From positions 225,002 through 289,001 of the forward strand of contig CAWIIB010000001.1 of the NCBI GenBank assembly GCA_963836075.1: 64,000 bases of DNA, written 5' to 3'. The position numbers were made by a program, and so were the translations under genes. The stretch is from an uncultured Acidobacteriota bacterium (lineage in GTDB: Bacteria; Acidobacteriota; JAQAZP01). Below the pieces are notes generated by a model that saw only the letters and a list, made by a program, of their open reading frames with translations, ran no database searches and was not told the DNA's origin. Of the stretch, positions 13,225 through 32,520 are shown one piece after another; positions within the stretch are counted from its first letter, which is position 1, and the number at the start of each line of letters is the position of its first letter.

Positions 13225-13435
13225 CCCGGACTCCGTGCCGTGACGCCGGAAGCGGACGCCCCGCGGCCCCCGATTCAGGGGGCCGGAGGTTTCCTCTCCG
13301 GCGTCACGCTGTACAGCGGAGAAGCCGCCATTCGGACAACGATACGTTGCGACAGCTGGGCCGGGTGGGGCGATTGGCTCTAAGTGCATATGGTTCAGAT
13401 GAATAGGGCTTCGCTGTCGGATTCCTTCCGATCCA

Positions 13436-13455
13436 ATGCAACAATATATGCAACA
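13436..13455 (+). promoter_or_regulatory. tandem direct repeat ATGCAACA-atat-ATGCAACA immediately upstream of the aprB promoter; candidate activator site
   Basis: An exact 8-bp direct repeat with a 4-bp spacer, ending 15 bp upstream of the -35 box. Confidence 0.4.
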
Positions 13456-13470
13456 TTTTCCCGAAACCCC

Positions 13471-13499
13471 TTGACAACCAAAATCGCTCTTGGTAGAGT
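13471..13499 (+). promoter_or_regulatory. sigma70-type promoter for aprBA (TTGACA-17-TAGAGT)
   Basis: Consensus -35 at 13471-13476, a 17-bp spacer, and -10 TAGAGT at 13494-13499. This implies a ~265-nt 5' leader. Confidence 0.5.
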
Positions 13500-16142: not shown

Positions 16143-16181
16143 CCCCCCGGGCGCGCCCTGCGTGCCCGGGGGGTTCTCTTT
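16143..16181 (+). terminator. intrinsic terminator after aprA (CCCCCCGGGC-N11-GCCCGGGGGG + TTCTCTTT)
   Basis: A perfect 10-bp GC stem followed by a T-rich tract. A second 7-bp inverted repeat (ACACGGCtcgGCCGTGT) lies at 16183-16199. Confidence 0.75.
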
Positions 16182-16333
16182 AACACGGCTCGGCCGTGTC
16201 CGCGGCGGTTGCGGGTGGACATCGGTGCTTCTGGCCCCGGCCAGGAGCATCGATGTTTGTTCACAACTGACCCGGACGGTGCCCAACCAGGTTCCCTGAT
16301 CCGTACCGGCGTCAGTCTGATTTCGGGTGAAGA

Positions 16334-16627
16334 ATGACAGAACAGACACCCCAGACCTGCCCCCACTGCCAATCGGCCCTGTTGCCGTTTCGCACGCCGC
16401 CCAACACTTCGTGGGGCGGCAACATCCACCTGGCCTGCTTCAACGACGAATGTCCCTACTTCGTCCGCGGCTGGAAGTGGATGGCCGAAAAATACGAAGC
16501 CCACGCCTCGTACCGTTTCATGGTCGACCCGGTGAACGGGACCACCGGACCCCTGCCGGTCTGGTCGGCCCAGGCGCTGCGCGACTTGATTCTGCAAGAG
16601 GGCGAAGAGTGGGATTCCGAGGAGTGA
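16334..16627 (+). CDS. small zinc-ribbon-like hypothetical protein (CPHC…CFNDECPYF)
   Basis: 97-aa ORF with four Cys in a CxxC…CxxxC arrangement. It lies 4 nt upstream of the next ORF, in the same operon as qmoABC. Confidence 0.55.
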   Translation: MTEQTPQTCPHCQSALLPFRTPPNTSWGGNIHLACFNDECPYFVRGWKWMAEKYEAHASYRFMVDPVNGTTGPLPVWSAQALRDLILQEGEEWDSEE

Positions 16628-16631
16628 CTGG

Positions 16632-17454: not shown

Positions 17455-17498
17455 TCCCCGAAAGGTAAGAGGCAACCCCTAACGGGAGGAACTGCGAG

Positions 17499-18767: not shown

Positions 18768-18769
18768 CC

Positions 18770-21019
18770 GTGGAAGAGAAACTCGGAGTATTCATCTGCA
18801 CCGGATACGGCATCGGCGAAGCGCTGGATGTGGAGGCGCTGCAGAAGGTGGCCACCGGTGAGTACAAGGCAGCCGTCTGTGAAACCATCGATTCCTGTGC
18901 CGCGGAGGACCTGCAGAAGCTGCGGGCCGCCGCCGTTGAGCAGCAGCTGACCCATGTGGTGCTGGCCGGACGCTCCGGCCGGTCCTACGCTGCCGGCGAC
19001 CTGCCCGACGGTATCGCGGTGGAAACAGTCAACCTGCTGGAGTGGGTTGTGCTGACCCATCCCGCCGGCGACGAGGACACCCAGGCCATGGCGGAGGACT
19101 ACCTCCGCATGGGAATCGTCCGTGTGAAAAAGACCAGCCCCGCCGCGCTATTCGAGGAGCATGACCGCCTGTGCAGGACCATCATGGTGGTGGGCGGCGG
19201 CATCGCCGGCCTCACCGCGGCGCGGGAGGCCGCCGATGCCGGCTACCAGGTGGTGCTGGTGGAGAAGGAAAAGGAACTTGGCGGCTACATGAAAAAGCTG
19301 CACCGCTCCATCCCCACCCGCCCGCCGTACCGCGAGCTGGAGGAAACCGGCATCGAGGCCCTGGTGCAGGCGGTCACCGCCCACCAGAACATCACCGTGC
19401 ACAGCGGAACCACGATCAAGGAGACCCTTGGCGCCCCGGGCCTGTTCACGGTGACCCTCGACGGTGACGGCGCCGGAACGCTGGAGGTGGGCACCTTTGT
19501 CCAGGCCACCGGGTTCCGCCCGGCCGAGCCGGAAAATTTCGAGCACCTGGGGTACGGAAAACTGGCCAACGTGATCACCAACCACCAGCTGGAGGAGATG
19601 GCGGCCAACGGGGGCATCAAGCGTCCGTCGGACGGCGCCGCGGTGAAGAACGTGGCTTTTGTTCAGTGCGGCGATTCCCGAAATCCCGAGACCTTCTCCT
19701 ACGCCTCGGCGATCATGTCGCTCAACGCACTGAAGCAGGCGCTATACGTGCGCGAACAGGGCGAGGACGCCAAGGCCTACGTCTTCTTCGAGCACCTGCG
19801 CACACCCGGCCAGCTCGAAGATTTCTATCGCCGGGTCCAGGAGGACCCCGGTGTCTTCCTCACCCGCGGATCGGTGGATTCGGTGGCCGAGAGTGGCGGT
19901 GGCCTGACCCTGCAGGTCAAGGACACGATGATCGGCGAGGAGATCTCCGTCGAGGTGGACATGCTGGTCCTCAACTCCGGCATGGTCCCTGTGGCCGCCG
20001 ACGGCGAGGCGATCCGCAAGCTGGAAGACTCCAAGGCCATCGTGGCCAAGGGGCCGGAAGATGCCAAGTACAAGGACTCGGTGAAGCGGGTGGAAGAGCT
20101 GGCCAGCCACGAAGGCACGGCTATTCTCAATCTCAACTACCGCCAGGGTCCGGACATGCCGGCGCTGAAGCACGGCTACCCCGACTCGCATTTCATCTGC
20201 TTCCCCTACGAGACCCGGCGCACCGGCGTTTACGCCGCCGGGGCGGTCCGCTCGCCGATGAACGGCAACAGCGCCGCCGAGGATGGCATGGGCGCCGCGC
20301 TGAAAGCGATCCAGGCCGTGGAGATGCTCTCCCGCGGCGAGACGGTGCACCCCCGGGCCGGCGATGTGTCCTTCCCGCACTTCTCCCTCGAGCGTTGCAC
20401 ACAGTGCAAGCGTTGCACCGAGGAGTGCCCCTTCGGCGCCATCAACGAGGACGCCAAGGGAACGCCGGAATACAACGTCACCCGCTGCCGTCGCTGCGGC
20501 ATCTGTCTCGGCGCCTGCCCGGAACGGATCATCAATTTCCCCGACTACGGCGTGGCGCCGGTGGCCGAGATGATCAAGGCCGTGGAGGTGCCCGACGAGT
20601 ACGAGGAGAAGCCCCGGGTGCTGGTGCTGGCCTGCGAGAACGACGCCCTGCCGGCCCTGGAGCGGGCGGCAAACCACGGCCTGTCCTACAGCGGTTTCGT
20701 GCGGGTGATCCCGGTGCGCTGCCTCGGCAGCTGCAACGTGGTCTGGATCAAGGAAGCCATCTCGGTGGGTTTTGACGGTGTGCTGCTGCTGGGCTGCAAG
20801 TGGGGTGACGATTACCAGTGCCACTACATCAAGGGCAGCGAGCTGATGAACACCCGCGGTGACAACATCAAGGAAACCCTGCAGCAGATGTCCATGGAGA
20901 ACGAGCGCGTCCAGCTGCACCAGGTGGAAATCACCGACTACCGGAAGGTGGTCACCCTGATCGAGGAGTTCATGGAAATGATCGAAGAGATCGGCATGAA
21001 CCCCTTCAAGGGCATGTAG
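18770..21019 (+). CDS. qmoB: QmoB, HdrA-like flavoprotein with C-terminal MvhD-like/ferredoxin domains
   Basis: 749 aa with a second FAD fold (IMVVGGGIAGLTAAREAAD), 2x[4Fe-4S] (CTQCKRCTEECP, CRRCGICLGACP) and an MvhD-like C-terminus. Confidence 0.9.
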   Translation: MEEKLGVFICTGYGIGEALDVEALQKVATGEYKAAVCETIDSCAAEDLQKLRAAAVEQQLTHVVLAGRSGRSYAAGDLPDGIAVETVNLLEWVVLTHPAGDEDTQAMAEDYLRMGIVRVKKTSPAALFEEHDRLCRTIMVVGGGIAGLTAAREAADAGYQVVLVEKEKELGGYMKKLHRSIPTRPPYRELEETGIEALVQAVTAHQNITVHSGTTIKETLGAPGLFTVTLDGDGAGTLEVGTFVQATGFRPAEPENFEHLGYGKLANVITNHQLEEMAANGGIKRPSDGAAVKNVAFVQCGDSRNPETFSYASAIMSLNALKQALYVREQGEDAKAYVFFEHLRTPGQLEDFYRRVQEDPGVFLTRGSVDSVAESGGGLTLQVKDTMIGEEISVEVDMLVLNSGMVPVAADGEAIRKLEDSKAIVAKGPEDAKYKDSVKRVEELASHEGTAILNLNYRQGPDMPALKHGYPDSHFICFPYETRRTGVYAAGAVRSPMNGNSAAEDGMGAALKAIQAVEMLSRGETVHPRAGDVSFPHFSLERCTQCKRCTEECPFGAINEDAKGTPEYNVTRCRRCGICLGACPERIINFPDYGVAPVAEMIKAVEVPDEYEEKPRVLVLACENDALPALERAANHGLSYSGFVRVIPVRCLGSCNVVWIKEAISVGFDGVLLLGCKWGDDYQCHYIKGSELMNTRGDNIKETLQQMSMENERVQLHQVEITDYRKVVTLIEEFMEMIEEIGMNPFKGM

Positions 21020-21029
21020 GGCAGGGACA

Positions 21030-22145
21030 ATGAGTACCACAGCAGATCTCCAGTTCGCCAACGACGTGATCCGCGCCGGCGGGTCGGAGGTGATGAAATG
21101 CTACCAGTGCGCCACCTGCTCGGCGGTGTGCGAACTGGCGCCGGTGGACAAGCCGTTTCCGCGCAAGGAGATGATCTGGGCCCAGTGGGGGCTGCAGGAG
21201 CGGCTGATCGGCGATCCCGACGTCTGGCTCTGCCACCAGTGCAACGACTGCACCGTGCACTGCCCGCGAGGCGCCAAGCCGGCGGACGTGATGTCGGCGG
21301 TACGGCAGCTGAGCATCGAGCATTACGCGGTACCCCGGGCCCTGGCCCGGATGGTCAACAAACCCGGCATGCTGCCGCTGCTGCTGGCCATCCCGTCGCT
21401 GGTCATCGGGCTTATATTGATTCTGCTGTACGCCGGCGGGGTGATCGAGCTGGGCGGCCACGAGGTGGAATATGCCAAGATGTTTCCCCACGCCTGGCTC
21501 AACGGCAGCTTCACCATCTTCTTCTTTGTCGCCTGCGGGGCGCTGTTCGTCGGTTTGCGCCGCTTCTGGAACGACATGGACCGGCTGGCCCCGGCAACCG
21601 GGGCGGATCGCAAACCGCTGATCGGCTCGCTGATCGGGCTGCTGCTGGAGTTCATTGCGCACAGCCGTTTCGGCAAGTGCACCGACGACCACTATCGCAA
21701 ACTGTCCCACCTGGGGGTGGTTTTCGGTTTCGCCGGCCTGCTGCTGGTCACCGCCGTGGCCATCGTTTACATCCTGCTGCACCTGCCCTATCCCATGGCC
21801 CAGACCAACCCGTTCAAGATCCTCGGCAACCTCAGTGCCCTGGCCATGCTCAGCGGCCTGCTGGTGCTGATCTTCAAGCGTTTCGAAAAACGTGACACCG
21901 CCCGGGGCAGCACCTACTTTGACTGGTCCTTCCTCGTGCTGCTGCTGCTGGTGGTGGTCACAGGTCTGCTCACCGAGGCGGCCCGGCTGGTGGGCGTGGC
22001 TGCCGTGGCCTATCCGGTCTACTATGTGCACCTGGTTATCATCTGGTCACTCTTCGTCTATGCGCCCTATTCCAAAATGGCCCACCTGGCCTACCGGCTC
22101 ACCGCGCTGCTGCACGCCCGGGTCAATGGCAGGGAGGAGGTCTGA
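21030..22145 (+). CDS. qmoC: QmoC, HdrC/HdrE-fusion membrane subunit (Fe-S plus heme b)
   Basis: N-terminal 2x[4Fe-4S] (CYQCATCSAVC, CHQCNDCTVHCP) followed by a NarI-like membrane domain. Confidence 0.9.
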   Translation: MSTTADLQFANDVIRAGGSEVMKCYQCATCSAVCELAPVDKPFPRKEMIWAQWGLQERLIGDPDVWLCHQCNDCTVHCPRGAKPADVMSAVRQLSIEHYAVPRALARMVNKPGMLPLLLAIPSLVIGLILILLYAGGVIELGGHEVEYAKMFPHAWLNGSFTIFFFVACGALFVGLRRFWNDMDRLAPATGADRKPLIGSLIGLLLEFIAHSRFGKCTDDHYRKLSHLGVVFGFAGLLLVTAVAIVYILLHLPYPMAQTNPFKILGNLSALAMLSGLLVLIFKRFEKRDTARGSTYFDWSFLVLLLLVVVTGLLTEAARLVGVAAVAYPVYYVHLVIIWSLFVYAPYSKMAHLAYRLTALLHARVNGREEV

Positions 22146-22160
22146 GGACCTGAAACACCG

Positions 22161-23915
22161 ATGAAGAACAGCATCCAAGTGGAACAGCTCCGCAGCCTGG
22201 AGAAAAAACTGCGCGATTCCTTTCCTTCCCGCTCCCTCTGGGACGGCCTGGCCGACGTGATCCCCGACGCCATGTTCGTCATGGACGAGGACCGCCGGAT
22301 CATTTACTGGAGCGGAAGGGCGGAGGAGATGACCGGGTTCACCCCCGGGGACGTGCTGGGCAAGAACTGCTGTGCCGACGAGCGGTGCAACAACTGCCCC
22401 AAGGGTTGCCCGTTGTTCCAGGAGGGTTCGATGAACAACCTGGAAGGCATTTTTGCCACCAAGGACGGGCGGGTGATCCCGGTGCTGAAGAACGGTCTGC
22501 TGTTCCGCAACCGCCGGGGGCGGATCCTCGGCGCGGTGGAAACCATCCGCGACATCTCCATCGAGGAGCAGACCAGCCAGAGTCTGGCCCGGGAGCAGGT
22601 GCGTTTCGATTCGCAGAAACGTCTGTTGGAGTCGGTGATCGGCGCGGTGTCCGAAGGGGCGGTGGCCATCGACCGTGACCTGCAGATCATCAGCTTCTCC
22701 CGTCAGGCCTCGGAGATCAGCGGGGTAGCGGTGGAGGATGCCATCGGCGCCAAGTGCTGCGACATCCTGCGCAACCCGCTCTGCGAGGAGCAGTGCCCGA
22801 TGCAGCACCTGGCCGATCACCGGACCAGGCAGCCCGGGCTGCCCACCCGGATCAGCGGCGCCGGCGGCGACAGCATTCCGGTCACCGAGTCGGTGGTGCC
22901 GATCTTCATGGAGGGCAAGCTCAGCGGCGGGATCATCATCCTGCGCGACATGCGGGCCGAGGAAAAGCTGGCCCTGGAACAGATGCGCAGCGGGCAGCTG
23001 GACGAGATGATCGGCCGTTCCAGCGCGATGCAGAACATCTTCTATCTCATCGACCGGCTGGCCGAAATCGACACTCCGGTCTGTCTGGTGGGGGAGGCCG
23101 GAACCGGGCGGGATATCGTCGCCCGGACCCTGCACCGCAAGAGTGTTCGGTCCGAGGGCCAGCTGCGCAGCATCGACTGCGGCCTGCTTCCCGAGCACCT
23201 GCTGGAGAGCGAGTTTTTCGGGCATCTCAAGGGCGCCCTGCCCGGGGCGGTGCGCGACAAGGTCGGGCAGCTGGAACTGGCCCACCGGGGTACGCTGTAC
23301 GTGGCCCAGGTGGAAAAGCTGCCCCGGCCGCTGCAGAAGAAGCTCGTGCGGTTTCTCGAGACCGGGGAATTCACCAAGGTGGGCGGCAAGAACAGTATCG
23401 AAAGCGACGTGCGGATGATCTGCGCCTTCAACGAGGATTTCGAATCCCTGGTGCAAGAGGGACGCATCGGCAAGGACCTCTATGACGCCGTGTGCGGAAT
23501 CGTGATCAACATCCCGCCGCTGCGCGACCGCCGACTGGACATCGAACTGCTGGTGGTCCACTTTCTCAAGAGCCAGGACGTCTCGGGGATCGGTGAAACC
23601 CAGGCGAAGAAGATATCCGCCGGCGCCCTGCGGGCCCTGGTCCGCTACCCCTGGCCCGGCAACGTTCGAGAACTGCGTAACGTCCTCGACTACGCGGTAT
23701 CGGTCTGCTCGGGAACGACGATCAACCTCAACGATTTGCCACCGGAGATCATCAGCTCGCTGGTTCCCAGCGACGATTCCGGTGAGGACGATGAACGGAC
23801 CCGGATCCTCCGCGCCCTGGAGGAAACCCACTGGCGCCGTTCGGAAGCGGCCCAGGCCCTGGGAATGGACCGTTCCACCCTCTGGAGAAAGATGAAATCC
23901 TTCGGTCTCTGCTGA
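22161..23915 (+). CDS. sigma54-dependent Fis-family transcriptional regulator with two Cys-rich PAS-like sensor domains
   Basis: AAA+ sigma54-interaction domain (GEAGTGRD…GAFTGA-like region, ESEFFGH) and a C-terminal Fis HTH (RSEAAQALGMDRSTLWRKM). The N-terminal PAS-like region carries the Cys-rich motifs CCADERCNNCPKGCP and CCDILRNPLCEEQCP. The gene starts 16 nt after qmoC. Confidence 0.8.
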   Translation: MKNSIQVEQLRSLEKKLRDSFPSRSLWDGLADVIPDAMFVMDEDRRIIYWSGRAEEMTGFTPGDVLGKNCCADERCNNCPKGCPLFQEGSMNNLEGIFATKDGRVIPVLKNGLLFRNRRGRILGAVETIRDISIEEQTSQSLAREQVRFDSQKRLLESVIGAVSEGAVAIDRDLQIISFSRQASEISGVAVEDAIGAKCCDILRNPLCEEQCPMQHLADHRTRQPGLPTRISGAGGDSIPVTESVVPIFMEGKLSGGIIILRDMRAEEKLALEQMRSGQLDEMIGRSSAMQNIFYLIDRLAEIDTPVCLVGEAGTGRDIVARTLHRKSVRSEGQLRSIDCGLLPEHLLESEFFGHLKGALPGAVRDKVGQLELAHRGTLYVAQVEKLPRPLQKKLVRFLETGEFTKVGGKNSIESDVRMICAFNEDFESLVQEGRIGKDLYDAVCGIVINIPPLRDRRLDIELLVVHFLKSQDVSGIGETQAKKISAGALRALVRYPWPGNVRELRNVLDYAVSVCSGTTINLNDLPPEIISSLVPSDDSGEDDERTRILRALEETHWRRSEAAQALGMDRSTLWRKMKSFGLC

Positions 23916-24148
23916 AACCGGGACCGTTTCGCCCGCTGCCGGGGGACAATACCCTGCCTCTGGCCCGATTCCGGGCCACAATCAGGTCACAAGCAACGCG
24001 ATGTTGCACTTCCCTGACCCGGGCATGACTTTTTGATATAAAGCTGTAAAGTGTTACAAGTAATATTATTAAACCTCATGCCACATTGCTGCCTTTTGTG
24101 ATAACAACATATTTTGCAACAGAATATTCACCGCGTTGGTCGAAATGC

Positions 24149-24177
24149 TTGACAGGTGGTCACGCTTGGAGTATAAA
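24149..24177 (+). promoter_or_regulatory. near-consensus sigma70 promoter for dsrC (TTGACA-17-TATAAA)
   Basis: TTGACA at 24149-24154, a 17-bp spacer, and TATAAA at 24172-24177, in a locally AT-rich 360-bp intergenic region. It leaves a ~95-nt leader carrying a small hairpin (GGCGCCtcgGGCGC) before the AAAGGAG RBS. Confidence 0.6.
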
Positions 24178-24278
24178 CGGTCTCCATAGAGTTGGATTTT
24201 CATGTACCGTGTTTTGAATCGGGCATTATTTCAATCTTGGATTTGGCGCCTCGGGCGCTCATCAAAAGGAGTTTATAG

Positions 24279-24596
24279 ATGCCAGTTTTTGAATTCGATG
24301 GACAGGAGATCGAGGTCGACGAGGACGGGTTCATCCAGAATCCCGATGTCTGGAACGACGACATCGCCGCGGCGCTGGCCAAGACCGAGGGTGTCGACGA
24401 ACTGACCGAAGACCACTGGAAGCTGGTCCGCTACCTCCGGGACTACTACCTGCAGTTCGGTATCGCCCCCATGATCCGCAAGCTCTGCAAGGCCACCGGC
24501 TTCTCGCTGAAGACCGTTTACGAACTGTTCCCCAGCGGCCCGGCAAAGGGTGCCTGCAAGGTGGCTGGTCTGCCCAAGCCCACCGGCTGTGTGTAA
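24279..24596 (+). CDS. dsrC: DsrC, dissimilatory sulfite reductase-associated sulfur-carrier protein (TusE/DsrC family)
   Basis: 105 aa ending …KGACKVAGLPKPTGCV, with the two conserved C-terminal arm cysteines. An AAAGGAG RBS lies 7 nt upstream. Confidence 0.9.
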   Translation: MPVFEFDGQEIEVDEDGFIQNPDVWNDDIAAALAKTEGVDELTEDHWKLVRYLRDYYLQFGIAPMIRKLCKATGFSLKTVYELFPSGPAKGACKVAGLPKPTGCV

Positions 24597-24656
24597 ACGG
24601 CATTCAGGTATTTGACGTATTCCCGAAGATGAGAGAAAACCGAGAAGGGAGTTGTG

Positions 24657-25886
24657 ATGGCTGAACCGAAGAAATACGACACCCCCTTGCTGGACGAGCT
24701 TGAAAAGGGTGCCTTTCCCAGCTTCGTGACCGAGATCAAGCGGATGGCCGAGCGCAAGCCGATGGCCGCCGACCTGCTGGGCCAGCTGGAGAAATCGTAT
24801 CGCGACAAGATCGGCTACTGGAAGCATGGCGGCCTGGTTGGCGTGATGGGTTACGGCGGCGGCGTGATCGGCCGCTATTCCGCCCAGAACGAAGAGTTCC
24901 CTGAGGTGTCCCACTTCCACACCATCCGGGTCAACCAGCCCTCCGGCTGGTTCTACAGCACCGAGAAACTGCGCCTGCTCTGCGACATCTGGGACCGCCA
25001 CGGTTCCGGCCTGACCAACATGCACGGCTCCACCGGCGACATCGTCTTCCTCGGCACGCGCACCGAAGAGCTGGAGCCGATCTTCTCCGAGCTGACCGAG
25101 AACGGGTTCGACCTCGGCGGTTCCGGGTCCTGCATGCGGACTCCCAGCTGCTGCGTGGGACCGGGCCGCTGCGAGTGGGCGCTCTACGACACCCTGGCCC
25201 TGACCTACCAGCTGACCATGGACTTCCAGGACGAGATGCACCGTCCGCCGTTCCCCTACAAGTTCAAGTTCAAGATGGCCGGCTGCCCCAACGACTGCGT
25301 GGCCTCCATCGCCCGCGCCGACATGTCGATCATCGGCACCTGGCGGGACGAGATCAAGATCGATGCCGCCGCCCTGAAGAGCGAGTATATCGACAAGGGC
25401 AAAGACATCCAGTCCGACGTGGTCGACATGTGTCCCACCGGCTGCATGAAGTTCGACGGCGAAACCCTGGACATCGACAACGCCAACTGCACCAAGTGCA
25501 TGCACTGCATCAACGTGCTGCACCACGCACTGGCTCCCGGCGATGATCGCGGCGCCTGTATCCTGGTCGGTTCCAAGGCCCCCATCGTCGAGGGCGCGCT
25601 GCTCTCCTCGGTGATCGTGCCCTTCATCAAGCTGGAAACGCCCAAGGAGGGTGAGGATCCCTATCCCGAACTGATGGACCTCGTCGAGAGGATGTGGGAC
25701 TTCTGGGGTGAGAACGGCAAGAACCGTGAGCGGATCGGCGAGATGATCCAGCGGATCGGCCTGGGGAACTTCCTCGACGAGATCGAGGTGGACCCGATTC
25801 CGGAGATGATCGTGCATCCCCGGACCAACCCCTACATCTTCTTCGAAGAGTATTACGAGGACGATGACGAGGACGACGAGGAATAG
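24657..25886 (+). CDS. dsrA: dissimilatory sulfite reductase alpha subunit
   Basis: Siroheme/[4Fe-4S] binding Cys clusters ([31 protein letters not shown]) and an AAGGGAG RBS. Confidence 0.9.
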
Positions 25887-25955
25887 ATCGTCGCTCCACC
25901 AGGATCGACTTACGTAGGAGATTTCAGTTTAAGATAGAGCAAATGGAGGTTTTCC

Positions 25956-27041
25956 ATGGCTGACGAACCCGCCAAAAGAATTACCGATATCGGACCGCCG
26001 CACTACAGCGAGATGCTGCCGCCGATGATCAAAGAGAACCTGGGCAAGTGGAAGGATCACGAGATCGTCACCCCGGGCATCATGTATCACGTGGCCGAAT
26101 CCGGGGACAAGCTGTACACCGTGCGCGTGGCCTCTCCGCGGATCCTCTCCGTGGACCGGATCACGGACATCTGCGACCTGGCCGACAAGCACTGCGAAGG
26201 CTATCTGCGCTTCACCAGCCGCAACAATGTGGAATTCCTGGTCAGCGACGAATCGAAACTGCAGCCGCTGATCGACGACCTGAACAAGGATCCGTTCTTT
26301 GTCATCGGCGGCATGGGCAACGGTATTTCCAACATCGTCCACACCCAGGGCTGGGTGCACTGCCACTCCTCGGCCACCGATGCCTCGGGCATCGTCAAGT
26401 GCGTGATGGACGAGCTGCACGAGTACTTCAGCGAAACCAGGCTGCCGGGCAAGATCCGTATCGCCCTGGCCTGCTGTCTCAACATGTGCGGTGCGGTGCA
26501 CTGCTCGGACATCGCCATTCTCGGTGTGCACCGCCGCCCGCCGAGGATCGACAATGACAACCTGGACAAGATCTGCGAGATCCCCACAACCGTGGCCTCC
26601 TGTCCCACCGGCGCCATCCGGCCGGCCACCGTGGACGGCAAGGAGACGGTGGAGGTGGACGAGGACGCCTGCATGTTCTGCGCGAACTGCTACACCGTCT
26701 GCCCCTCGATGCCGCTCAATGACCCGCTGAACGACGGTATCTCCATCTGGGTTGGCGGCAAGGTGTCCAACGCCCGGTCCGAGCCGAAGTTCTCCAAGCT
26801 GGCCATTCCCTTCATTCCCAACAATCCGCCGCGCTGGCCCGAAGTGACCGAAGCGGTGAAGAATATCATCCAGGTCTACATCGACAACGCCAAACCCTAC
26901 GAGCGGATGGGCGAGATGATCGAGCGGATCGGCTGGCCGAAGTTCTTCGACCTCACCGGCATCGAGTTCACCAAGTATCACATCGATGACTTCAAACATG
27001 CAGGGACGACCTACAAGACGTCCACGCACCTGAGATACTAG
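25956..27041 (+). CDS. dsrB: dissimilatory sulfite reductase beta subunit
   Basis: 361 aa with ferredoxin-like ([17 protein letters not shown]) and siroheme-region motifs. It sits directly downstream of dsrA. Confidence 0.9.
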
Positions 27042-27052
27042 GGGGCAAGACC

Positions 27053-27295
27053 ATGGCTGATGTCAGCATCGAGCAGATTGCGGACGAGATGTTCAAGATG
27101 GTCGAAGACGCCTCCGGCAAGCGGAACTACAAGCCGGGCGACCTGGTCAAGGCCATGATGGCCAAGTTCGACGCGGACAAGAAGACCTGCAAGACTGCTC
27201 TGCGGACGCTGATGGACTCCGGCCGCTGTGTCTACGGATACTTCGGCGGAACTTCGGTCCAGTTGCCGCACAAGGAAGGCGCTGCGAACGACTAG
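27053..27295 (+). CDS. dsrD: DsrD (small winged-helix protein, marker of reductive-type Dsr)
   Basis: 80 aa in the conserved position after dsrB, with a lysine-rich winged-helix-like sequence (…KPGDLVKAMMAKFDADKKTCKTALRTLMDSGRCVYGYFGG…). Confidence 0.8.
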   Translation: MADVSIEQIADEMFKMVEDASGKRNYKPGDLVKAMMAKFDADKKTCKTALRTLMDSGRCVYGYFGGTSVQLPHKEGAAND

Positions 27296-27304
27296 CGTAT
27301 GCTG

Positions 27305-27346
27305 GCCGGCGGGGCTCCCGCGGGGGTCCCGCCGGCTGATTTTCCC
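27305..27346 (+). terminator. GC-rich hairpin followed by TGATTTTCC after dsrD; candidate intrinsic terminator
   Basis: GCCGGCGGG…CCCGCCGGC stem with a nested CCCGCGGG palindrome, then a T-run. Confidence 0.5.
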
Positions 27347-27438
27347 TCCGCTCCTGCAGGGGTGTGGGCCCACCTTCGCCGTTGCCCGCGCGGGTTTGCG
27401 GAGGGCCCGGGACCACGGGCCCGGCGCCGGAGCCGGAG

Positions 27439-28848
27439 ATGCGAGAACACTGCCCACGAGTTATGATCGCCGGAATGGGCGGTGATTCGGGTAAGACACT
27501 TCTCTCCCTCGGCCTTCTTTCCTCCTGGCGCCGTGACGGCCTGCGCATCGCTCCGTTTAAAAAAGGTCCCGACTATATCGACGCGGCATGGCTGGCCCGG
27601 CTGTCCGGTGCGGCCTGTCGCAATCTCGATACGTTCCTGATGGGTGACGCTGAGGTGCGTTCCGCCTTTTTCACCCATTCCCGGGGCGTGGATGCGGCCC
27701 TGGTGGAAGGAAACAGGGGACTGTTCGACGGGATCGACGCCGGCGGGCGGCACAGCAGCGCCGAACTGGCCAAGCTGCTGGACACGCCGGTGCTGCTGGT
27801 GGTTGGTGTGCGGAAGGTGACCCGTACCGTGGCCGCCTGGCTGCTGGGGTGCCGGGCGCTGGATCCCGAGCTGAAGATCGCCGGGGTGGTGCTCAACCGG
27901 GTGGCCGGGACGCGTCACGAAAGGGTGGTCAGGGAATCGATCGAATCGATATGTGACCTGCCGGTTGTGGGGGCACTGCCGGTTTTGCCCGAGGGCAGCC
28001 TGCTCCCCGATCGTCATCTGGGGCTGGTCACCCCGGCGGAAAACGACCGTGTTGTGGAGATGGAGGAGCGGCTGGCCGGCATCATCGGCCGCTATGTCGA
28101 TTGCGCCGCCGCCCTGGACCTGGCCCGCCAGGCGCTTCCGCTGGACCTGCCGGAGCGATCAGGGCCTGGAGAGACGACGAGCAGTGGGGAAGGGGTCCGG
28201 ATTGCCTACTTCAGCGATTCGGCCTTCACCTTCTACTACCCGGAGAACCTCGAAGCCCTGGAGAAGCTGGGGGCGGAACTGCTGCCGCTGTCGAGCCTGG
28301 AGTCCACCCGGCTACCCCGGTCCGTGGATGCGCTCTATATCGGCGGAGGGTTTCCGGAGACCCACGCTTCACGCATCGCCGGCAACCGGGGGCTGTTCCA
28401 GTCCCTGGAGCAAGAGGTCGGGCTGGGGCTGCCGGTCTATGCCGAGTGCGGCGGGCTGATTTACCTCGCCCGTGCACTGCGCTGGCAGGGCCGGGAGTAT
28501 CCCATGGCCGGTGTGCTGCCGGTGACCGTGGAACTGGAGCAGCGACCGGCCGGGCACGGATATTGCCGGGTGGGGGTGGACCGCGACAACCCGTTCTTCC
28601 CGGTGGGCACCGAGCTCACCGGACACGAGTTTCACTACTCTCGCGTAGTGGAACAGGGAGTCGACCCCCGGACGGTGTTCAAGGTGCTTCGAGGCTCCGG
28701 AGCGGTGAGCGGGCGGGACGGGCTGGTCAGGGACAACGTGCTGGCCACCTATCTTCACCTGCACGCCCGGGGCACGCCGGCCTGGGCGGCGGGACTGGTT
28801 GGCGCTGCCCGGCGGTTCAGAAAAGAGAGTACGGTGATTAACGAGTAG
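27439..28848 (+). CDS. dsrN: DsrN, cobyrinic acid a,c-diamide synthase homolog (putative siroheme amidase)
   Basis: CbiA/CobB family: an N-terminal P-loop (IAGMGGDSGKT) and a C-terminal glutamine amidotransferase domain (YAECGGLIYL). It sits after dsrABD, as in other sulfate reducers. The start is uncertain, with alternatives at 27364 and 27463. Confidence 0.75.
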   Translation: MREHCPRVMIAGMGGDSGKTLLSLGLLSSWRRDGLRIAPFKKGPDYIDAAWLARLSGAACRNLDTFLMGDAEVRSAFFTHSRGVDAALVEGNRGLFDGIDAGGRHSSAELAKLLDTPVLLVVGVRKVTRTVAAWLLGCRALDPELKIAGVVLNRVAGTRHERVVRESIESICDLPVVGALPVLPEGSLLPDRHLGLVTPAENDRVVEMEERLAGIIGRYVDCAAALDLARQALPLDLPERSGPGETTSSGEGVRIAYFSDSAFTFYYPENLEALEKLGAELLPLSSLESTRLPRSVDALYIGGGFPETHASRIAGNRGLFQSLEQEVGLGLPVYAECGGLIYLARALRWQGREYPMAGVLPVTVELEQRPAGHGYCRVGVDRDNPFFPVGTELTGHEFHYSRVVEQGVDPRTVFKVLRGSGAVSGRDGLVRDNVLATYLHLHARGTPAWAAGLVGAARRFRKESTVINE

Positions 28849-28929
28849 CGAGTTGTTGACCGAGCAGGGCCGGGGCGGGCGCTACCCGCTGCCGGCGCTT
28901 ACACGAACAGAAACTGAGGTGACCTGCAA

Positions 28930-30639
28930 ATGGCGAAGATGGTCAAGAAAAAGAAAAAGAAGAAGTACGGCGCATCGAGATTCGGCGGCGGTTCGGCCGG
29001 CGGATCGGGGGGCGGCAAATCCGACCTCAGGCCCAAATTCGTGGAGAAGACCCCGCCCTGTACCGACAAGTGCCCGAACAACAACAATATCCGCGAAGCG
29101 CTGCGGGTGGTCGCCTCGTCAGAAAAGCAGGGCCGCACCTACGAGCAGTCGCTGGAAGCCGCCTGGTTCACCTTCACCGAGACCTCGCCCTTTCCCTCCG
29201 TCTGCGGACGGGTCTGTCCCCACCCCTGTGAGGGTGCCTGCAACCGCACCGAAGTTGACGGTGCAGTGGGGATCAACGCCTTCGAGCGCGCCGTGGGCGA
29301 CTACGGCATCGAGCAGGGTCTGAAACTGACCCGGCTCACCGAAGAAAAGAGGGAGGAGAAGGTTGCAGTGGTGGGTGCCGGTCCGGCCGGCATGTCCTGT
29401 GCGTTCCACCTGGCGCGACGCGGATACCCGGTGACCGTCTTCGAGGGTTTTCCCCGGGCCGGCGGCATGCTGCGCTACGGCATCCCTCCCTACCGGCTGC
29501 CCCGCAACATCATCGACGCTGAAGTGGCGAAGATCCTCGAACTGGGGGTCGATTTGAAGTGCGACACCGCGGTGGGCACCGATATCAGCTACGATGAGCT
29601 GAAGAACGATTACAAGGCCGTGTTCATGGGCATCGGGGCCCACAAGGGCCGGCAGCTGCGGGTGGAAGGGGAGGAGGCGGCAAATGTCTGGACGGGCGCC
29701 GACTTCCTGCACCGCCTGAACTCCGGGGAGAAGGTCGAGGTGGGGGACAAGGTGATCGTCATCGGCGGCGGCGACAGCGCCATCGATGCCGCCCGGGCTT
29801 CCAGGCGCCTCGGTGCAGATGTCCGGATCATCTACCGGCGGACCATCGAGGAGATGCCGGCCATATCCCACGAGGTGACCGCGGCCCAGGACGAGGGGAT
29901 CCAGATCGATTTCCTCGCCGCACCCGCGGGCATCCAGCTGGACGACAACGGCAAGGCCGTGGCCATGACCTGCATCCGCATGGAGCTGGGCGAGCCTGAC
30001 GAATCGGGCCGCCGCCGCCCGGTGCCGCAGGAGGGGTCGGAGTTTTCAGTGGAGACCACCACCATCATCGCCGCCATCAGCCAGGAACCGGACTTTGACA
30101 ATCTGGAGTTCCTGCGCGAAGGCCGCGACTGGCTCAAGGTGGACCAGCACCAGAAAATGCTCAAATTCGACGACATCTATGCCGGTGGCGATGCCCTGGA
30201 CCTGGCCACGGTGATCCAGGCCATCGCTCACGGCAAGGAGGCGGCGATCACCATCGACGCCAACCTGCGCGCTGAGGAGCGGCCCCGCGGACCGTGGGCC
30301 GACTATGCGGTGATCAAGCACGAGAAGATGAAACTCAGTTTTTACGAGAAGCTGGAGCGTCACGAAGTGCCTGAGCTGCCGGTGGCGGAGCGGTTCGAAA
30401 ACGGGATGGAGAAGGAGGTGGCGCTGGGGCTGAGCCGCGAGGACGGCATCGAGGAGGCCAAGCGCTGTATGAGCTGCGGCCATTGCATGGACTGTGAGAG
30501 CTGCTGGATGTACTGCACCCCGGCGGCGGTGGTCAAACCGGACCAGCCCGGCGGTGACTACGCCTTCAAGCTGGAACTGTGCGACGGCTGCAAGAAGTGC
30601 GCCGAGGAATGTCCCTGTGGCTACATCGAGATGTTCTGA
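28930..30639 (+). CDS. DsrL-like NAD(P)H oxidoreductase (GltD family plus C-terminal 2x[4Fe-4S] ferredoxin domain)
   Basis: GltD-type N-terminal Fe-S motifs (CTDKCP, CGRVCPHPCEGAC), FAD and NAD(P) Rossmann folds (VAVVGAGPAGMSCA; VIVIGGGDSAIDAA) and an extra C-terminal ferredoxin domain (CMSCGHCMDCESC…CDGCKKCAEEC). The N-terminus has a K8 tract. Confidence 0.65.
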   Translation: MAKMVKKKKKKKYGASRFGGGSAGGSGGGKSDLRPKFVEKTPPCTDKCPNNNNIREALRVVASSEKQGRTYEQSLEAAWFTFTETSPFPSVCGRVCPHPCEGACNRTEVDGAVGINAFERAVGDYGIEQGLKLTRLTEEKREEKVAVVGAGPAGMSCAFHLARRGYPVTVFEGFPRAGGMLRYGIPPYRLPRNIIDAEVAKILELGVDLKCDTAVGTDISYDELKNDYKAVFMGIGAHKGRQLRVEGEEAANVWTGADFLHRLNSGEKVEVGDKVIVIGGGDSAIDAARASRRLGADVRIIYRRTIEEMPAISHEVTAAQDEGIQIDFLAAPAGIQLDDNGKAVAMTCIRMELGEPDESGRRRPVPQEGSEFSVETTTIIAAISQEPDFDNLEFLREGRDWLKVDQHQKMLKFDDIYAGGDALDLATVIQAIAHGKEAAITIDANLRAEERPRGPWADYAVIKHEKMKLSFYEKLERHEVPELPVAERFENGMEKEVALGLSREDGIEEAKRCMSCGHCMDCESCWMYCTPAAVVKPDQPGGDYAFKLELCDGCKKCAEECPCGYIEMF

Positions 30640-30681
30640 CCACGGGTCCCTGAACCCGCAGCCCTGGTGGAGATCTGAGCG

Positions 30682-31179
30682 ATGACCATGCTGGCCAGAG
30701 ACCTGATGGTGGATGAGTACGAGACCATCCGCCCCGAGGCCACCGTTCAGGAAGCGATCCGACTGATGCGTTTCACCCGCCACGGGCAGCAGGGGCGGCG
30801 AATTTTCGGCCTGCTGGTTCTGGACGCCCGGGACAAGCTGGCCGGGATGATCTCGATGAGCGACATCCTGCACCATGTCCGGCCCCCGTTCAAGAAAATG
30901 TGGGCCGACACGGTGGGGCTGGCCTGGAGCGGCCAGTTCCAGGCCGCTTGCGAGCGGGCGAAAAAGATGCAGGTCAAGGAGATCATGAACCCCGCGGTAA
31001 TCACCGTGGAGCCGGAGAGCAACATTGCTGAAATAATCGACCTGATGACCAAGCACCACATTCGCCGGATACCGGTGATCTGCGGTCAGCGGGTCTGCGG
31101 AATGGTCTATATATCCGATGTCTTTCACCGTCTTCACCCGTGCCTGCTGGGCACCACCGGCAAGGCCCGTCAGGGCTGA
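30682..31179 (+). CDS. CBS-domain pair protein (paralog 2)
   Basis: Paralogous to 4225..4710 (ARDLMV…GMISMSDIL…VYISDVFHRL). It lies between the dsrL-like gene and sat. Confidence 0.75.
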   Translation: MTMLARDLMVDEYETIRPEATVQEAIRLMRFTRHGQQGRRIFGLLVLDARDKLAGMISMSDILHHVRPPFKKMWADTVGLAWSGQFQAACERAKKMQVKEIMNPAVITVEPESNIAEIIDLMTKHHIRRIPVICGQRVCGMVYISDVFHRLHPCLLGTTGKARQG

Positions 31180-31303
31180 CCGGGGGCGCCGGCACGGGCG
31201 CTGACATGTCTATCTGTCGAGGATTTCAAGGTCTCTGGGAACGCTGCCTGTGATACGCACAGGCAACACGTGAGTTATTTACTCATCAGTGAGGAGCAAG
31301 TGC

Positions 31304-32488: not shown

Positions 32489-32520
32489 CAAGGCCGCCAG
32501 GCCTGCGCTTGAGACCCATC

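What the first reader, a model, noticed from the sequence alone, without database searches (positions are those of the whole stretch)
23916..24657. dsrC sits directly upstream of dsrAB under its own near-consensus promoter
In most sulfate reducers dsrC is at a separate locus. Here it immediately precedes dsrA, in a C-A-B-D-N-L order reminiscent of the N-C-A-B-L order of some sulfur oxidisers. It is driven by a TTGACA-17-TATAAA promoter in a locally AT-rich 360-bp region, consistent with very high DsrC expression. A 7-bp hairpin (TGGCCCGattcCGGGCCA, 23961-23978) follows the upstream regulator gene. The ~95-nt leader contains a small GC hairpin next to the RBS.
Basis: partly seen in the sequence, partly recalled or inferred. 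Interest (0 to 1): 0.55.

Follow-up and report, generated by a model that had tools for sequence, protein, structure and literature searches.

The report
dsrC-led sulfite reductase operon promoter
The sulfur-carrier gene dsrC does sit directly in front of the sulfite reductase genes behind a conserved ordinary-type promoter, but that promoter serves a four-gene dsrCABD operon, the layout is shared by the whole lineage, and the more interesting lead is a neighbouring degenerate regulator gene whose likely DNA sites flank this promoter and the aprBA promoter.

Summary
dsrC (24279-24596, both functional C-terminal cysteines) lies 60 nt upstream of dsrA. TTGACA-17-TATAAA (24149-24177) is unique in the window and sits in a 40-42% GC island.

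The interpretation needs correcting.
- The promoter is the operon promoter. There is no terminator or promoter between dsrC and dsrA. A strong conserved intrinsic terminator follows the dsrD-like gene (27303-27338), so the unit is dsrCABD, with dsrNL beyond it.
- The dsrC-first order is a lineage trait. It occurs in every close relative and in a Schekmanbacteria genome. It is rare overall: 1 of 74 metagenomic DsrC relatives and 3 of 47 genomic DsrA relatives. Most relatives carry dsrC at the end of dsrAB(D)NL, not at a separate locus.
- The hairpin after the regulator gene has no U-tail and is not conserved.

New findings:
- Footprinting across five orthologues shows invariant -35, -10, a CGCT spacer element, a distal palindrome (23993-24007) and a proximal TGCAACA box exactly 34 bp from the -35.
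- The same module precedes aprBA.
- The upstream "sigma-54 activator" has lost its Walker A lysine, Walker B and GAFTGA. It probably acts at these sigma-70-type promoters.

The parts
22161..23915 (+). Atypical enhancer-binding-protein-like regulator: two Cys-rich PAS domains, a degenerate AAA+ domain and a Fis-type HTH.
   Evidence: Pfam finds PAS, Sigma54_activat, AAA_lid_14 and HTH_8. Alignment to NtrC-family structures and to generic EBPs shows Walker A GTGRD (Lys to Arg), GAFTGA replaced by GALPGA, and Walker B DE replaced by AQ. These changes are present in all orthologues, including Schekmanbacteria P0250.
23961..23978 (+). GC hairpin after the regulator gene (TGGCCCG-ATTC-CGGGCCA). Terminator function is doubtful.
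   Evidence: z = -2.36 in the window and z = -3.19 for a different hairpin in L058. L001, L002 and L054 have none. No copy has a U-tail.
23993..24007 (.). Distal palindrome GCAACGCGATGTTGC (core CAAC[G/A]-N3-[C/T]GTTG). Candidate operator or upstream binding site, centred about -184.
   Evidence: 16 of 20 columns are invariant across 5 orthologues, with 0.92 pairwise identity against 0.29-0.36 in the flanks. The core pattern occurs only here and upstream of aprB in the window.
24011..24102 (.). AT-rich linker between the distal and proximal sites. Its sequence is not conserved.
   Evidence: GC about 0.40. Pairwise identity 0.36. Length is nearly constant: palindrome to box is 121-122 bp in 5 of 6 orthologues and 130 bp in L054.
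24105..24132 (+). Proximal box: CAACA-N5-TGCAACA-N5-TTCACC, three CAAC-like half-sites at 12-bp spacing, centred about -61.
   Evidence: 20 of 31 columns are invariant. The distance from TGCAACA to TTGACA is exactly 34 bp in all six dsrC promoters and both aprB promoters examined.
24149..24177 (+). Sigma-70-type promoter: TTGACA, 17-nt spacer, TATAAA, with a conserved CGCT(TGGAG) element in the 3' half of the spacer.
   Evidence: Unique in the window. The -35 and -10 are invariant (TATATA in L054) and the 17-bp spacing is fixed, while the 5' half of the spacer is fully diverged at 0.20 identity.
24184..24278 (+). Predicted 5' leader of about 95 nt. It contains the GC hairpin at 24245-24259 and the ribosome-binding site AAAGGAG at 24265-24271.
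   Evidence: The start is inferred from the -10. The hairpin GCGCC-N3-GGCGC is kept in 5 of 5 orthologues with different loops and one G-U pair. The whole leader does not fold better than shuffles (z = 0.14). There is no Rfam match.
24279..24596 (+). dsrC, the first gene of the operon.
   Evidence: PF04358 E=1.8e-39 and TIGR03342 E=2.3e-36. Both C-terminal cysteines are present.
24597..24656 (+). dsrC-dsrA spacer of 60 nt, carrying only the dsrA ribosome-binding site (GAAGGGAG).
   Evidence: No terminator-like or promoter-like site on the + strand. Weak fold, z = +1.16. Only the ribosome-binding site and start are conserved.
24657..27041 (+). dsrA (24657-25886) and dsrB (25956-27041).
   Evidence: TIGR02064 E=5.5e-169 and TIGR02066 E=4.9e-154.
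27053..27295 (+). 80-aa DsrD-like gene, assigned by position and by a predicted winged-helix fold.
   Evidence: No PF08679 hit and no PDB DsrD hit. tblastn matches small ORFs downstream of dsrB in other lineages. The AF2 model has three helices and a beta-hairpin, pLDDT 68.8. Foldseek gives only weak winged-helix matches.
27303..27348 (+). Intrinsic terminator that ends the dsrCABD unit: 16-bp stem with 12 GC pairs, then AUUUUCCCUC.
   Evidence: It is the top terminator-like site in 12600-32500. It is conserved in L001, L002 and L058 with changed upper stem and loop. Analogous hairpins with U-rich tails follow the gene in L143 and L057.
27364..30639 (+). dsrN-like (27364-28848) and dsrL-like (28930-30639), downstream of the terminator.
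   Evidence: NF002204/TIGR00379 and NF009410 hits.
13336..13499 (+). Paralogous regulatory module upstream of aprBA. It comprises the palindrome ACAACGATACGTTGC (13336-13350), TGCAACA repeated twice (13437, 13449), TTGACA (13471-13476), a 17-nt spacer and TAGAGT (13494-13499).
   Evidence: locate the elements. It is the only + strand sigma-70 hit in the tool's scan of 12600-32500. The boxes are conserved in orthologue L144 while the middle region has diverged. The 34-bp box-to-(-35) spacing is the same as at dsrC.

Best explanation
The 360-bp AT-rich region is the regulatory region of a dsrC-dsrA-dsrB-dsrD operon.

Promoter and transcript. A housekeeping (sigma-70-type) promoter, TTGACA-17-TATAAA at 24149-24177, starts transcription near 24184. 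The transcript has a leader of about 95 nt with a small GC hairpin just before a strong ribosome-binding site. It runs through dsrC, a 60-nt spacer, dsrA, dsrB and the small dsrD-like gene, and ends at a strong intrinsic terminator at 27303-27338. Placing dsrC first lets it be made from the same message as its partner enzyme. Any excess of DsrC over DsrAB would have to come from translation or RNA processing, not from a private promoter.

Upstream control (inferred). Two conserved DNA elements lie upstream of the promoter. One is a proximal array of CAAC-type half-sites centred near -61 and locked at 34 bp from the -35. The other is a distal palindrome about 120 bp further upstream. The same two elements, with the same 34-bp spacing, precede the aprBA promoter.

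The likely factor (inferred). It is the product of the adjacent gene, a PAS-PAS-AAA+-HTH protein descended from sigma-54 activators. It has lost the ATPase motifs and the GAFTGA sigma-54 contact, so it must work without sigma-54. VpsR and FleQ do this at sigma-70 promoters. Its two Cys-rich PAS domains probably sense redox state or a sulfur or metal signal.

Shown: gene identities, conservation of each element, the spacing, the terminator, motif degeneracy, and co-occurrence of regulator and sites.

Inferred: the start site, co-transcription, who binds the sites, and whether control is positive or negative.
For: Promoter:
- It is unique in the window, with 0 matches in shuffles.
- In five orthologues with 74-94% regulator identity, the background intergenic identity is 0.20-0.36. 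The -35 scores 0.91, the -10 0.93 and CGCTTGGAG 0.96. The spacing is fixed at 17 bp.
- Sister lineages use comparable TTGACA-17-TAGAAT and TTGCCA-17-TACAAT promoters.

Operon extent:
- There is no terminator or promoter in the 60-nt dsrC-dsrA spacer.
- A conserved terminator follows the dsrD-like gene in the window, L001, L002, L058, L143 and L057.

Shared cis module:
- The palindrome core CAAC[AG]N3[CT]GTTG occurs in the window only at 13337 and 23994.
- Four of the seven TGCAACA copies in 64 kb fall in these two regions.
- The box-to-(-35) distance is 34 bp in 8 of 8 promoters.
- The aprB boxes are conserved in L144.

Link to the regulator:
- The exact palindrome GCAAC-N5-GTTGC was found upstream of dsrC only in loci that carry the regulator.
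- Lineages without it (L139-L142, L053, L057) lack the boxes in their promoters.
- Ca. Schekmanbacteria L143 has the regulator at 54% identity with a near-identical HTH. It shows the same qmo-regulator-dsrC-dsrABD synteny, and palindromes upstream of aprB, dsrC and dsrT.

Sigma-54 independence:
- No -24/-12 site lies in the region at up to 2 mismatches.
- Walker A Lys, Walker B DE and GAFTGA are all lost, whereas the nearest generic EBPs keep them.
Against: - No transcript data exist. The start site, co-transcription and terminator efficiency are all predictions.
- The -10 lacks the usually critical T at its last position, in all orthologues, so the tool's sigma-70 scan rejects the site.
- A consensus -35 and near-consensus -10 would not obviously need an activator, so the direction of regulation is open.
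- All genes from aprB to sat are co-oriented, so read-through from the qmo-regulator unit cannot be excluded.
- The regulator-site link rests on co-occurrence in a small family, about 10 sequence clusters in two phyla. Another factor could bind the boxes.
- In L143 the dsrC promoter is partly masked by Ns, and its TGCAACA repeats upstream of aprB lie at a different position relative to the best local TTGACA.
- The GC hairpin stem shows no compensatory changes, so it could equally be a DNA palindrome.
Confidence: 0.62

Rival explanations
1. dsrC has a private, very strong promoter that mainly drives a monocistronic dsrC message to high levels, and dsrAB is expressed separately.
For: In classical sulfate reducers dsrC is a separate, highly expressed gene (general knowledge). 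dsrC was among the top ten expressed genes in one acidobacterial MAG (Hausmann 2018). The promoter is close to consensus.
Against: The 60-nt dsrC-dsrA spacer has no terminator-like hairpin (z = +1.16) and no promoter-like site. Only the dsrA ribosome-binding site is conserved there. The first conserved terminator comes after the dsrD-like gene.
Confidence: 0.15
2. The conserved upstream boxes are bound by some other transcription factor, such as a global redox regulator. The neighbouring degenerate EBP gene would then have an unrelated target or be a decaying gene.
For: No binding data exist. Co-occurrence comes from few lineages. Sister lineages carry Rrf2-family regulators next to sat, which shows that other regulators are used in this pathway.
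Against: The regulator is under strong purifying selection: 74-94% identity among orthologues, with an invariant HTH and invariant PAS cysteines. Its gene keeps its position next to the sites across two phyla. The boxes are absent from promoters of lineages that lack it.
Confidence: 0.2
3. dsrC is transcribed from a sigma-54 promoter activated by the upstream enhancer-binding protein. The TTGACA/TATAAA match would then be incidental.
For: The neighbour is annotated by Pfam and NCBIfam as sigma-54-interacting. A distal palindrome about 180 bp upstream, followed by an AT-rich linker, resembles an enhancer with a bending region.
Against: No TGGCAC-N5-TTGCW site with up to 2 mismatches lies between 22401 and 28552. 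The protein lacks GAFTGA, the Walker A lysine and the Walker B acidic pair. The -35 and -10 hexamers and their spacing are precisely conserved.
Confidence: 0.03
4. The promoter-like motif is a chance match in AT-rich spacer DNA, and dsrC is expressed by read-through from the qmoABC-regulator unit.
For: All genes are co-oriented. The hairpin after the regulator has no U-tail. AT-rich DNA yields promoter-like hexamers easily.
Against: There are 0 matches in 100 shuffles. The hexamers and their spacing are invariant in orthologues, while the surrounding AT-rich DNA has diverged to background.
Confidence: 0.05

Closest known systems
dsrCABLEFH / dsrNCABL... clusters of green sulfur bacteria (Chlorobaculum tepidum)
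   Same: dsrC immediately precedes dsrAB. The cluster is one transcription unit from a mapped RpoD-type start upstream of dsrC. A conserved operator motif (PSOS-2) lies at the promoter and is shared with other sulfur operons (bioRxiv 10.1101/172254).
   Different: That system is oxidative-type with dsrEFH and no dsrD. Its operator overlaps the -10/+1 region and its sequence is unrelated. No EBP-like gene is adjacent. Here DsrAB is the reductive type, with a dsrD-like gene and a terminator after it.
dsrAB(D)(N)LC clusters of peatland Acidobacteria and other DsrL-2 lineages (Zixibacteria, Ignavibacteria and others)
   Same: The gene set is the same (dsrA, B, D-like, N, L, C), and it is linked to apr, qmo and sat in one region (Hausmann 2018, PMC6018796; Anantharaman 2018, PMC6018805).
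   Different: In those clusters dsrC is last, paired with dsrL. Here dsrC is first, the whole dsr block sits between qmoC and sat, and a regulator gene has been added.
Desulfovibrio-type organisation (dsrABD operon, dsrC elsewhere)
   Same: dsrABD are co-transcribed, and DsrC is the partner protein (general knowledge; Santos 2015 as cited).
   Different: dsrC is unlinked there and has its own promoter. Here it is the first cistron of the dsrABD message.
Atypical bacterial enhancer-binding proteins that act at sigma-70 promoters (VpsR, FleQ at pel, TyrR, HupR)
   Same: They have an EBP domain architecture with a Fis-type HTH. They have lost or do not use the GAFTGA contact. They bind several sites upstream of a sigma-70 promoter. 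VpsR and FleQ structures are among the sequence matches. Their mode of action is recalled from general knowledge, not tested here.
   Different: The sensory module differs: two PAS domains each with a CC-x4-C-x2-C-x3-C-like motif, rather than receiver or FleQ domains. Walker A and Walker B are both degenerate, so even nucleotide binding is doubtful. The target genes are those of sulfate respiration.

Membership tests
DsrC (functional sulfite-reductase partner, as opposed to TusE/RspA-like) | Match to the DsrC/TusE family models above their cut-offs | tested here: met
   PF04358 134.9 bits (cut-off 24.9). TIGR03342 124.4 bits (cut-off 53.5)..
DsrC (functional sulfite-reductase partner, as opposed to TusE/RspA-like) | Two conserved cysteines in the flexible C-terminal arm: a penultimate Cys, and a second Cys 11 residues upstream | tested here: met
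   The C-terminus is ...GACKVAGLPKPTGCV.
Sigma-70-type promoter | -35 and -10 hexamers close to TTGACA/TATAAT at 16-18 bp spacing | tested here: inconclusive
   The -35 matches 6 of 6, the spacer is 17 nt and the -10 matches 5 of 6. The last base of the -10 is A rather than the highly conserved T, so the tool's scan excludes it.
Sigma-70-type promoter | Hexamers and spacing conserved in orthologous regions while flanks diverge | tested here: met
   six orthologues, identical 17-bp spacing, hexamer identity 0.91-0.93 against 0.20-0.36 background.
Sigma-70-type promoter | Mapped transcription start 6-8 nt downstream of the -10 | not testable with these tools
   No transcript data are available.
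Sigma-54-dependent promoter | -24 GG / -12 GC element (TGGCAC-N5-TTGCW) | tested here: not met
   No match with up to 2 mismatches in 22402-28551.
Bacterial enhancer-binding protein (sigma-54 activator) | Sigma54_activat AAA+ domain plus HTH_8 | tested here: met
   PF00158 E=7.4e-48 and PF02954 E=5.3e-13.
Bacterial enhancer-binding protein (sigma-54 activator) | GAFTGA loop that contacts sigma-54 | tested here: not met
   GALPGA in the window, GSLSGA in L002, GAIAGA in L054 and ECVPGA in P0250. Aligned NtrC-family, ZraR and generic EBPs have GAFTGA.
Bacterial enhancer-binding protein (sigma-54 activator) | Intact Walker A (GxxGxGK) and Walker B (hhhhDE) motifs for ATP hydrolysis | tested here: not met
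   Walker A reads GTGRD (Lys to Arg). Walker B reads LYVAQV, LLVLRS or LYLINI in place of LFLDE.
Intrinsic terminator (hairpin 23961-23978) | GC-rich stem followed by a U-tract, conserved in position | tested here: not met
   The stem is present, but there is no U-tract and no equivalent in L001, L002 or L054.
Intrinsic terminator (27303-27348) | GC-rich stem followed by a U-rich tail, conserved in orthologues | tested here: met
DsrD | Match to the DsrD family model (PF08679) or to solved DsrD | tested here: not met
   No hit at E up to 5. No DsrD among the PDB sequence hits or the fold hits.
DsrD | Small winged-helix protein encoded directly after dsrB | tested here: inconclusive
   The position fits. 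The model has three helices and a beta-hairpin, but pLDDT is only 68.8 and the wHTH matches are weak.

The most novel reading that the evidence does not exclude
The gene upstream of dsrC encodes a dedicated transcription factor for dissimilatory sulfate reduction. It is an ATPase-dead, sigma-54-independent descendant of enhancer-binding proteins, with two cysteine-rich PAS sensor domains. It would bind CAAC-type sites at fixed positions upstream of the sigma-70-type promoters of dsrCABD and aprBA, and of dsrT-MK in Schekmanbacteria. In this way it would switch the whole pathway in response to redox, oxygen or a sulfur signal. The regulator, its sites and the dsrC-first rearrangement would have travelled together between Acidobacteriota and Schekmanbacteria.
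Probability: 0.35. Interest if true: 0.65.

Novelty: new variant of a known kind. Interest (0 to 1): 0.42.

Why it matters
How sulfate reducers outside the classical Desulfobacterota control their respiration genes is essentially unknown. Acidobacterial sulfate reducers are reported to alternate between oxygen and sulfate respiration (Dyksma and Pester 2023, as summarised in PMC10591310).

The gene-order variant is a modest observation. It shows that DsrC and DsrAB can be produced from one message in a reductive-type system. It also defines a compact dsrCABD unit with clear start and stop signals.

The practical value is a short list of precise, testable cis elements and one candidate regulator shared by the dsr and apr promoters. 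These could be tested directly by EMSA or DAP-seq and by re-analysis of existing metatranscriptomes, without needing a cultured isolate.

Tried and rejected
- **Sigma-54 promoter search.** TGGCAC-N5-TTGCW at up to 2 mismatches gave nothing in the region, and the window total was below the shuffle mean.
- **Known RNA elements.** An Rfam scan of 23800-24800 at E up to 1 gave only two sub-threshold chance hits: Atu_L1 at 19.9 bits against a gathering score of 60, and HgcF at 14.4 against 70.
- **Structured leader.** The whole-leader fold is no better than shuffles (z = 0.14). Only the small GC hairpin is conserved.
- **Leader peptide.** ORF 24202-24405 overlaps dsrC out of frame. Single-base indels in L001 and L002 break the frame. 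Rejected.
- **Hairpin 23961-23978 as a terminator.** Not conserved, and there is no U-tail.
- **Internal promoter or terminator between dsrC and dsrA.** None found.
- **Source contig.** Exact-sequence look-ups with the window's DsrC and DsrA returned "not on record".
- **DsrD identity of the 80-aa ORF.** Pfam, PDB sequence search and a structure search were all inconclusive.
- **A third regulator site at 36188-36202.** This one-mismatch palindrome lies at the start of an unrelated minus-strand gene and was not pursued.
- **Literature on the arrangement or the regulator.** "dsrCAB" appears only in the Chlorobaculum preprint. No paper holds both GAFTGA and dissimilatory sulfite reductase.
- **Helical phasing of the distal palindrome.** The distances to the -35 are 155/156/164 bp at dsrC and 134 bp at aprB. 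The 21-bp difference is suggestive, but L054's +9 does not fit cleanly. No weight is placed on this.
Full report
**What is there.** The window carries, all on the + strand, a complete dissimilatory sulfate-reduction island.
- Sirohaem and tetrapyrrole genes lie at 297-4710.
- dsrT-like (4926), dsrM-like, dsrK-like, dsrO-like and dsrP-like genes span 5555-10513, followed by a second DsrMK-like pair.
- aprB (about 13768-14198) and aprA (14219-16120) come next.
- A small Zn-ribbon gene, a CxxCxxCC gene and qmoABC (17499-22145) follow.
- A PAS-PAS-AAA+-HTH regulator gene lies at 22161-23915.
- Then come dsrC (24279-24596), dsrA (24657-25886), dsrB (25956-27041), an 80-aa ORF (27053-27295), dsrN-like (27364-28848) and dsrL-like (28930-30639).
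- A CBS-pair gene and sat (31289-32488) close the island.

DsrC is a full-function type. It passes both family models and ends ...GACKVAGLPKPTGCV, with both arm cysteines.

**The observation.**
- *Promoter.* TTGACA (24149-24154), 17 nt, TATAAA (24172-24177) is present. It is the only TTGACA-N16-18-TATAAW in 64 kb, with none in 100 shuffles. The built-in sigma-70 scan did not report it, because that scan requires T as the last base of the -10 and this site has A.
- *Composition.* GC falls to 0.405-0.42 across 24000-24300, against about 0.62 in the flanks.
- *Hairpins.* The hairpin at 23961-23978 and the small GC hairpin at 24246-24258 are as described.

**Is the promoter real?** I collected orthologous regions:
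- L001 and L002 came from a genome scan with DsrA.
- L058 came from a metagenome scan with DsrC.
- L054, L144 and L146 came from exact-protein look-ups.

Regulator identity to the window is 74-94%. In a five-way alignment most of the intergenic DNA has diverged to background, at 0.20-0.36 pairwise identity. Discrete blocks remain nearly invariant:

| Block | Pairwise identity |
|---|---|
| CTTGACA (-35) | 0.91 |
| CGCTTGGAG (3' half of the spacer) | 0.96 |
| TATA(A/T)A (-10) | 0.93 |

The 5' half of the spacer scores only 0.20, yet its length is constant, and the spacer is 17 bp in all six orthologues. This is the signature of a working promoter. Related lineages use TTGACA-17-TAGAAT before aprB and TTGCCA-17-TACAAT before dsrA, so an E. 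coli-like consensus is appropriate here. The terminal A of the -10 is itself conserved. The start near 24184 remains an inference.

**What does it transcribe?** The dsrC-dsrA spacer is 60 nt.
- It has no terminator-like or promoter-like site on the + strand.
- It folds worse than shuffles (z = +1.16).
- It conserves only the dsrA ribosome-binding site and start.

The strongest terminator-like structure in 12600-32500 lies directly after the 80-aa gene. It is a 16-bp stem with 12 GC pairs at 27303-27338, followed by AUUUUCCCUC. L001, L002 and L058 keep it, with different upper-stem and loop sequences. Ca. Schekmanbacteria (L143) and L057 have their own hairpin plus U-tail at the same place.

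The best reading is therefore a dsrCABD unit of about 3.15 kb, with dsrN and dsrL beyond the terminator. The promoter is the operon's, not dsrC's own.

By contrast, the hairpin after the regulator gene lacks a U-tail and has no counterpart in L001, L002 or L054. Canonical U-tailed terminators are clearly used in this genome, also after aprA at about 16141-16178. That hairpin is therefore weak evidence for termination.

**How unusual is dsrC-first?** Three surveys bear on this.
- *DsrA-anchored genome loci.* Of 47 assessable loci, 3 have dsrC immediately upstream (L001, L002, L053). Sixteen have it downstream in the same cluster, and 28 have none within about 7 kb.
- *DsrC-anchored metagenome loci (64-89% identity).* Of 74 assessable loci, only L058 is followed by dsrA. 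The usual upstream neighbours of dsrC are dsrN (21), dsrL (21), dsrB (7) and sat (5).
- *Lineages closest by AprA (83-84%).* These have dsrABDNLC-sirohaem-aprBA-...-qmoABC-sat.

The dsrC-first order is thus a rare variant. But it is fixed in this lineage (window, L001, L002, L054, L058, L144, L146). It recurs in L053 and in L057 (an Acidobacteriota assembly), both without the regulator gene. It recurs with the regulator in Ca. Schekmanbacteria RBG_13_48_7 (L143).

The contrast with "most sulfate reducers" holds only for classical cultured taxa. The Chlorobi parallel is apt: in C. tepidum, dsrCABLEFH is one unit from a mapped RpoD start upstream of dsrC, with a shared operator. Anantharaman et al. 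already noted that these new lineages often encode the entire dsr pathway in one region (PMC6018805). I found no text describing the dsrC-first order outside Chlorobi.

**The upstream elements.** Two further blocks are conserved upstream of the promoter.
- *Distal palindrome.* GCAACGC(G/C)ATGTTGC lies at 23993-24007, with 16 of 20 columns invariant.
- *Proximal array.* CAACA-N5-TGCAACA-N5-TTCACC lies at 24105-24132, with 20 of 31 columns invariant.

The core CAAC[AG]N3[CT]GTTG occurs exactly twice in the window, at 23994 and at 13337. The latter is in the aprB upstream region. That region also has TGCAACA twice (13437, 13449) and TTGACA-17-TAGAGT at 13471-13499. This promoter is the only + strand sigma-70 hit in the tool's scan of 12600-32500. 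Four of the seven TGCAACA copies in the window lie in these two short regions.

The distance from TGCAACA to TTGACA is exactly 34 bp in all six dsrC promoters and both aprB promoters examined, although the bases between are unconserved. Both promoters also share CGCT at spacer positions 9-12. The aprB boxes are conserved in L144 while the DNA between them has diverged. With a start at about 24184, the proximal array is centred near -61. By general knowledge this is a classic position for an activator that contacts RNA polymerase. The direction of control is not established.

**The neighbouring regulator.** Databases label it a sigma-54 activator. Aligned to NtrC-family and ZraR structures and to the nearest generic EBPs, it differs at three defining motifs:
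- Walker A reads GTGRD instead of GTGKE.
- The GAFTGA loop reads GALPGA, GSLSGA, GAIAGA or ECVPGA.
- Walker B reads LYVAQV, LLVLRS or LYLINI instead of LFLDE.

These changes are found in every orthologue, including the Schekmanbacteria protein at 54% identity. The next-best homologues, at 40% identity or less, keep all three motifs. No -24/-12 element exists in the region.

The HTH segment is identical among the acidobacterial orthologues and nearly so in Schekmanbacteria. Both PAS domains carry invariant cysteine clusters: NCCADERCNNCxKGC and CCxxLxNPLCEEQCP.

The exact GCAAC-N5-GTTGC palindrome upstream of dsrC was found only in loci that carry this gene. Lineages lacking it have no such boxes in their apr or dsr promoters. 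L143 has core palindromes upstream of aprB (269), dsrC (10815) and dsrT (20133), and an AATGCAACA-N5-TGCAACAT repeat upstream of aprB.

My inference, at moderate confidence, is that this protein is an ATPase-dead, sigma-54-independent EBP derivative that binds these sites and co-regulates dsrCABD and aprBA. This would be analogous to VpsR, or to FleQ at sigma-70 promoters (general knowledge; both appear among the structural sequence matches). The gene abuts qmoC with a 15-bp gap, so it is probably co-transcribed with qmoABC.

**Leader.** The leader as a whole is not unusually structured and matches no Rfam family. The ORF starting at 24202 is not conserved in frame. The GCGCC-N3-GGCGC hairpin, eight nt upstream of AAAGGAG, is kept in all five orthologues with four different loops and one G-U substitution, but without compensatory changes. 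It may stabilise the message or tune translation, or it may be a DNA-level palindrome. This is unresolved.

**Verdict.** The arrangement is a lineage-wide, cross-phylum variant of the known clustered dsr organisation, and the promoter serves dsrCABD.

The added value of this follow-up is a precisely delimited transcription unit and a candidate regulator-operator system for sulfate-respiration genes. That system is not described in the papers I could search. Its function remains inferred.

Noticed in passing
window 16632-17454 (near 17127): The CxxCxxCC (YkgJ-like) gene between aprA and qmoA is split into two frames by a single extra C relative to orthologue L144, where the gene encodes an intact 273-aa protein. 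This is either a real frameshift (pseudogene) or an assembly error.
   Followed up: yes
window 27053-27295: The 80-aa gene in the dsrD position is not recognised by Pfam DsrD (PF08679) or by PDB DsrD sequences. Its counterparts in Nitrospirota loci reach only E of about 0.07-0.09. A single-sequence AF2 model (pLDDT 68.8) gives three helices and a beta-hairpin. The DsrD family model seems too narrow for these lineages.
   Followed up: partly
window 16141-16178: A strong GC hairpin (CCCCCCGGGC...GCCCGGGGGG) followed by TTCTCTTT lies directly after aprA. aprBA is therefore probably its own unit, separate from the Zn-ribbon/CxxCxxCC/qmoABC/regulator genes.
   Followed up: partly
window 4829-4858 and 4868-4880: Upstream of the dsrT-like gene there is another TTGACA-18-CATAAA promoter-like site. 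It is followed by GATGTTGCG, a half of the palindrome motif. In Schekmanbacteria L143 a full palindrome lies upstream of dsrT (20133).
   Followed up: partly
window 13337-13499 compared with 23994-24177: The palindrome-to-(-35) distance differs by 21 bp between the aprB (134) and dsrC (155) promoters. This equals two helical turns and might indicate face-of-helix constraints, but L054 (164) does not fit neatly.
   Followed up: partly
window 22161-23915; L139-L142: Compared with the nearest lineages by AprA, which have dsrABDNLC-sirohaem-aprBA-...-qmoABC-sat-Rrf2, the whole dsr block here sits between qmoC and sat. dsrC has moved to the front and a regulator gene has been added. The same derived layout in Schekmanbacteria suggests transfer of the island between phyla.
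   Followed up: partly
window 24177 (last base of the -10): The A at the last position of the -10 hexamer, where T is normally strongly preferred, is conserved in all six orthologous dsrC promoters. The dsrT-upstream site also ends in A (CATAAA).
   Followed up: no
window 3196-4710: A class-III aminotransferase (HemL-like) ORF carries a C-terminal CBS-domain pair. A separate stand-alone CBS-pair gene lies between dsrL and sat (30682-31179) and is conserved in orthologues.
   Followed up: no
L053 6276-6384: In this low-GC relative, dsrC follows qmoC after only about 45 bp. The 110-bp dsrC-dsrA spacer contains a long inverted repeat (CAGTCTTC...GAAGACTG), a possible attenuator or processing site that the window's lineage lacks.
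   Followed up: no
L143 10841-10884: The Schekmanbacteria dsrC upstream region has a run of N exactly where the -35 and the proximal box would be. Cross-phylum conservation of the promoter core therefore could not be checked. A TATAAA followed by GG is visible right after the gap.
   Followed up: partly
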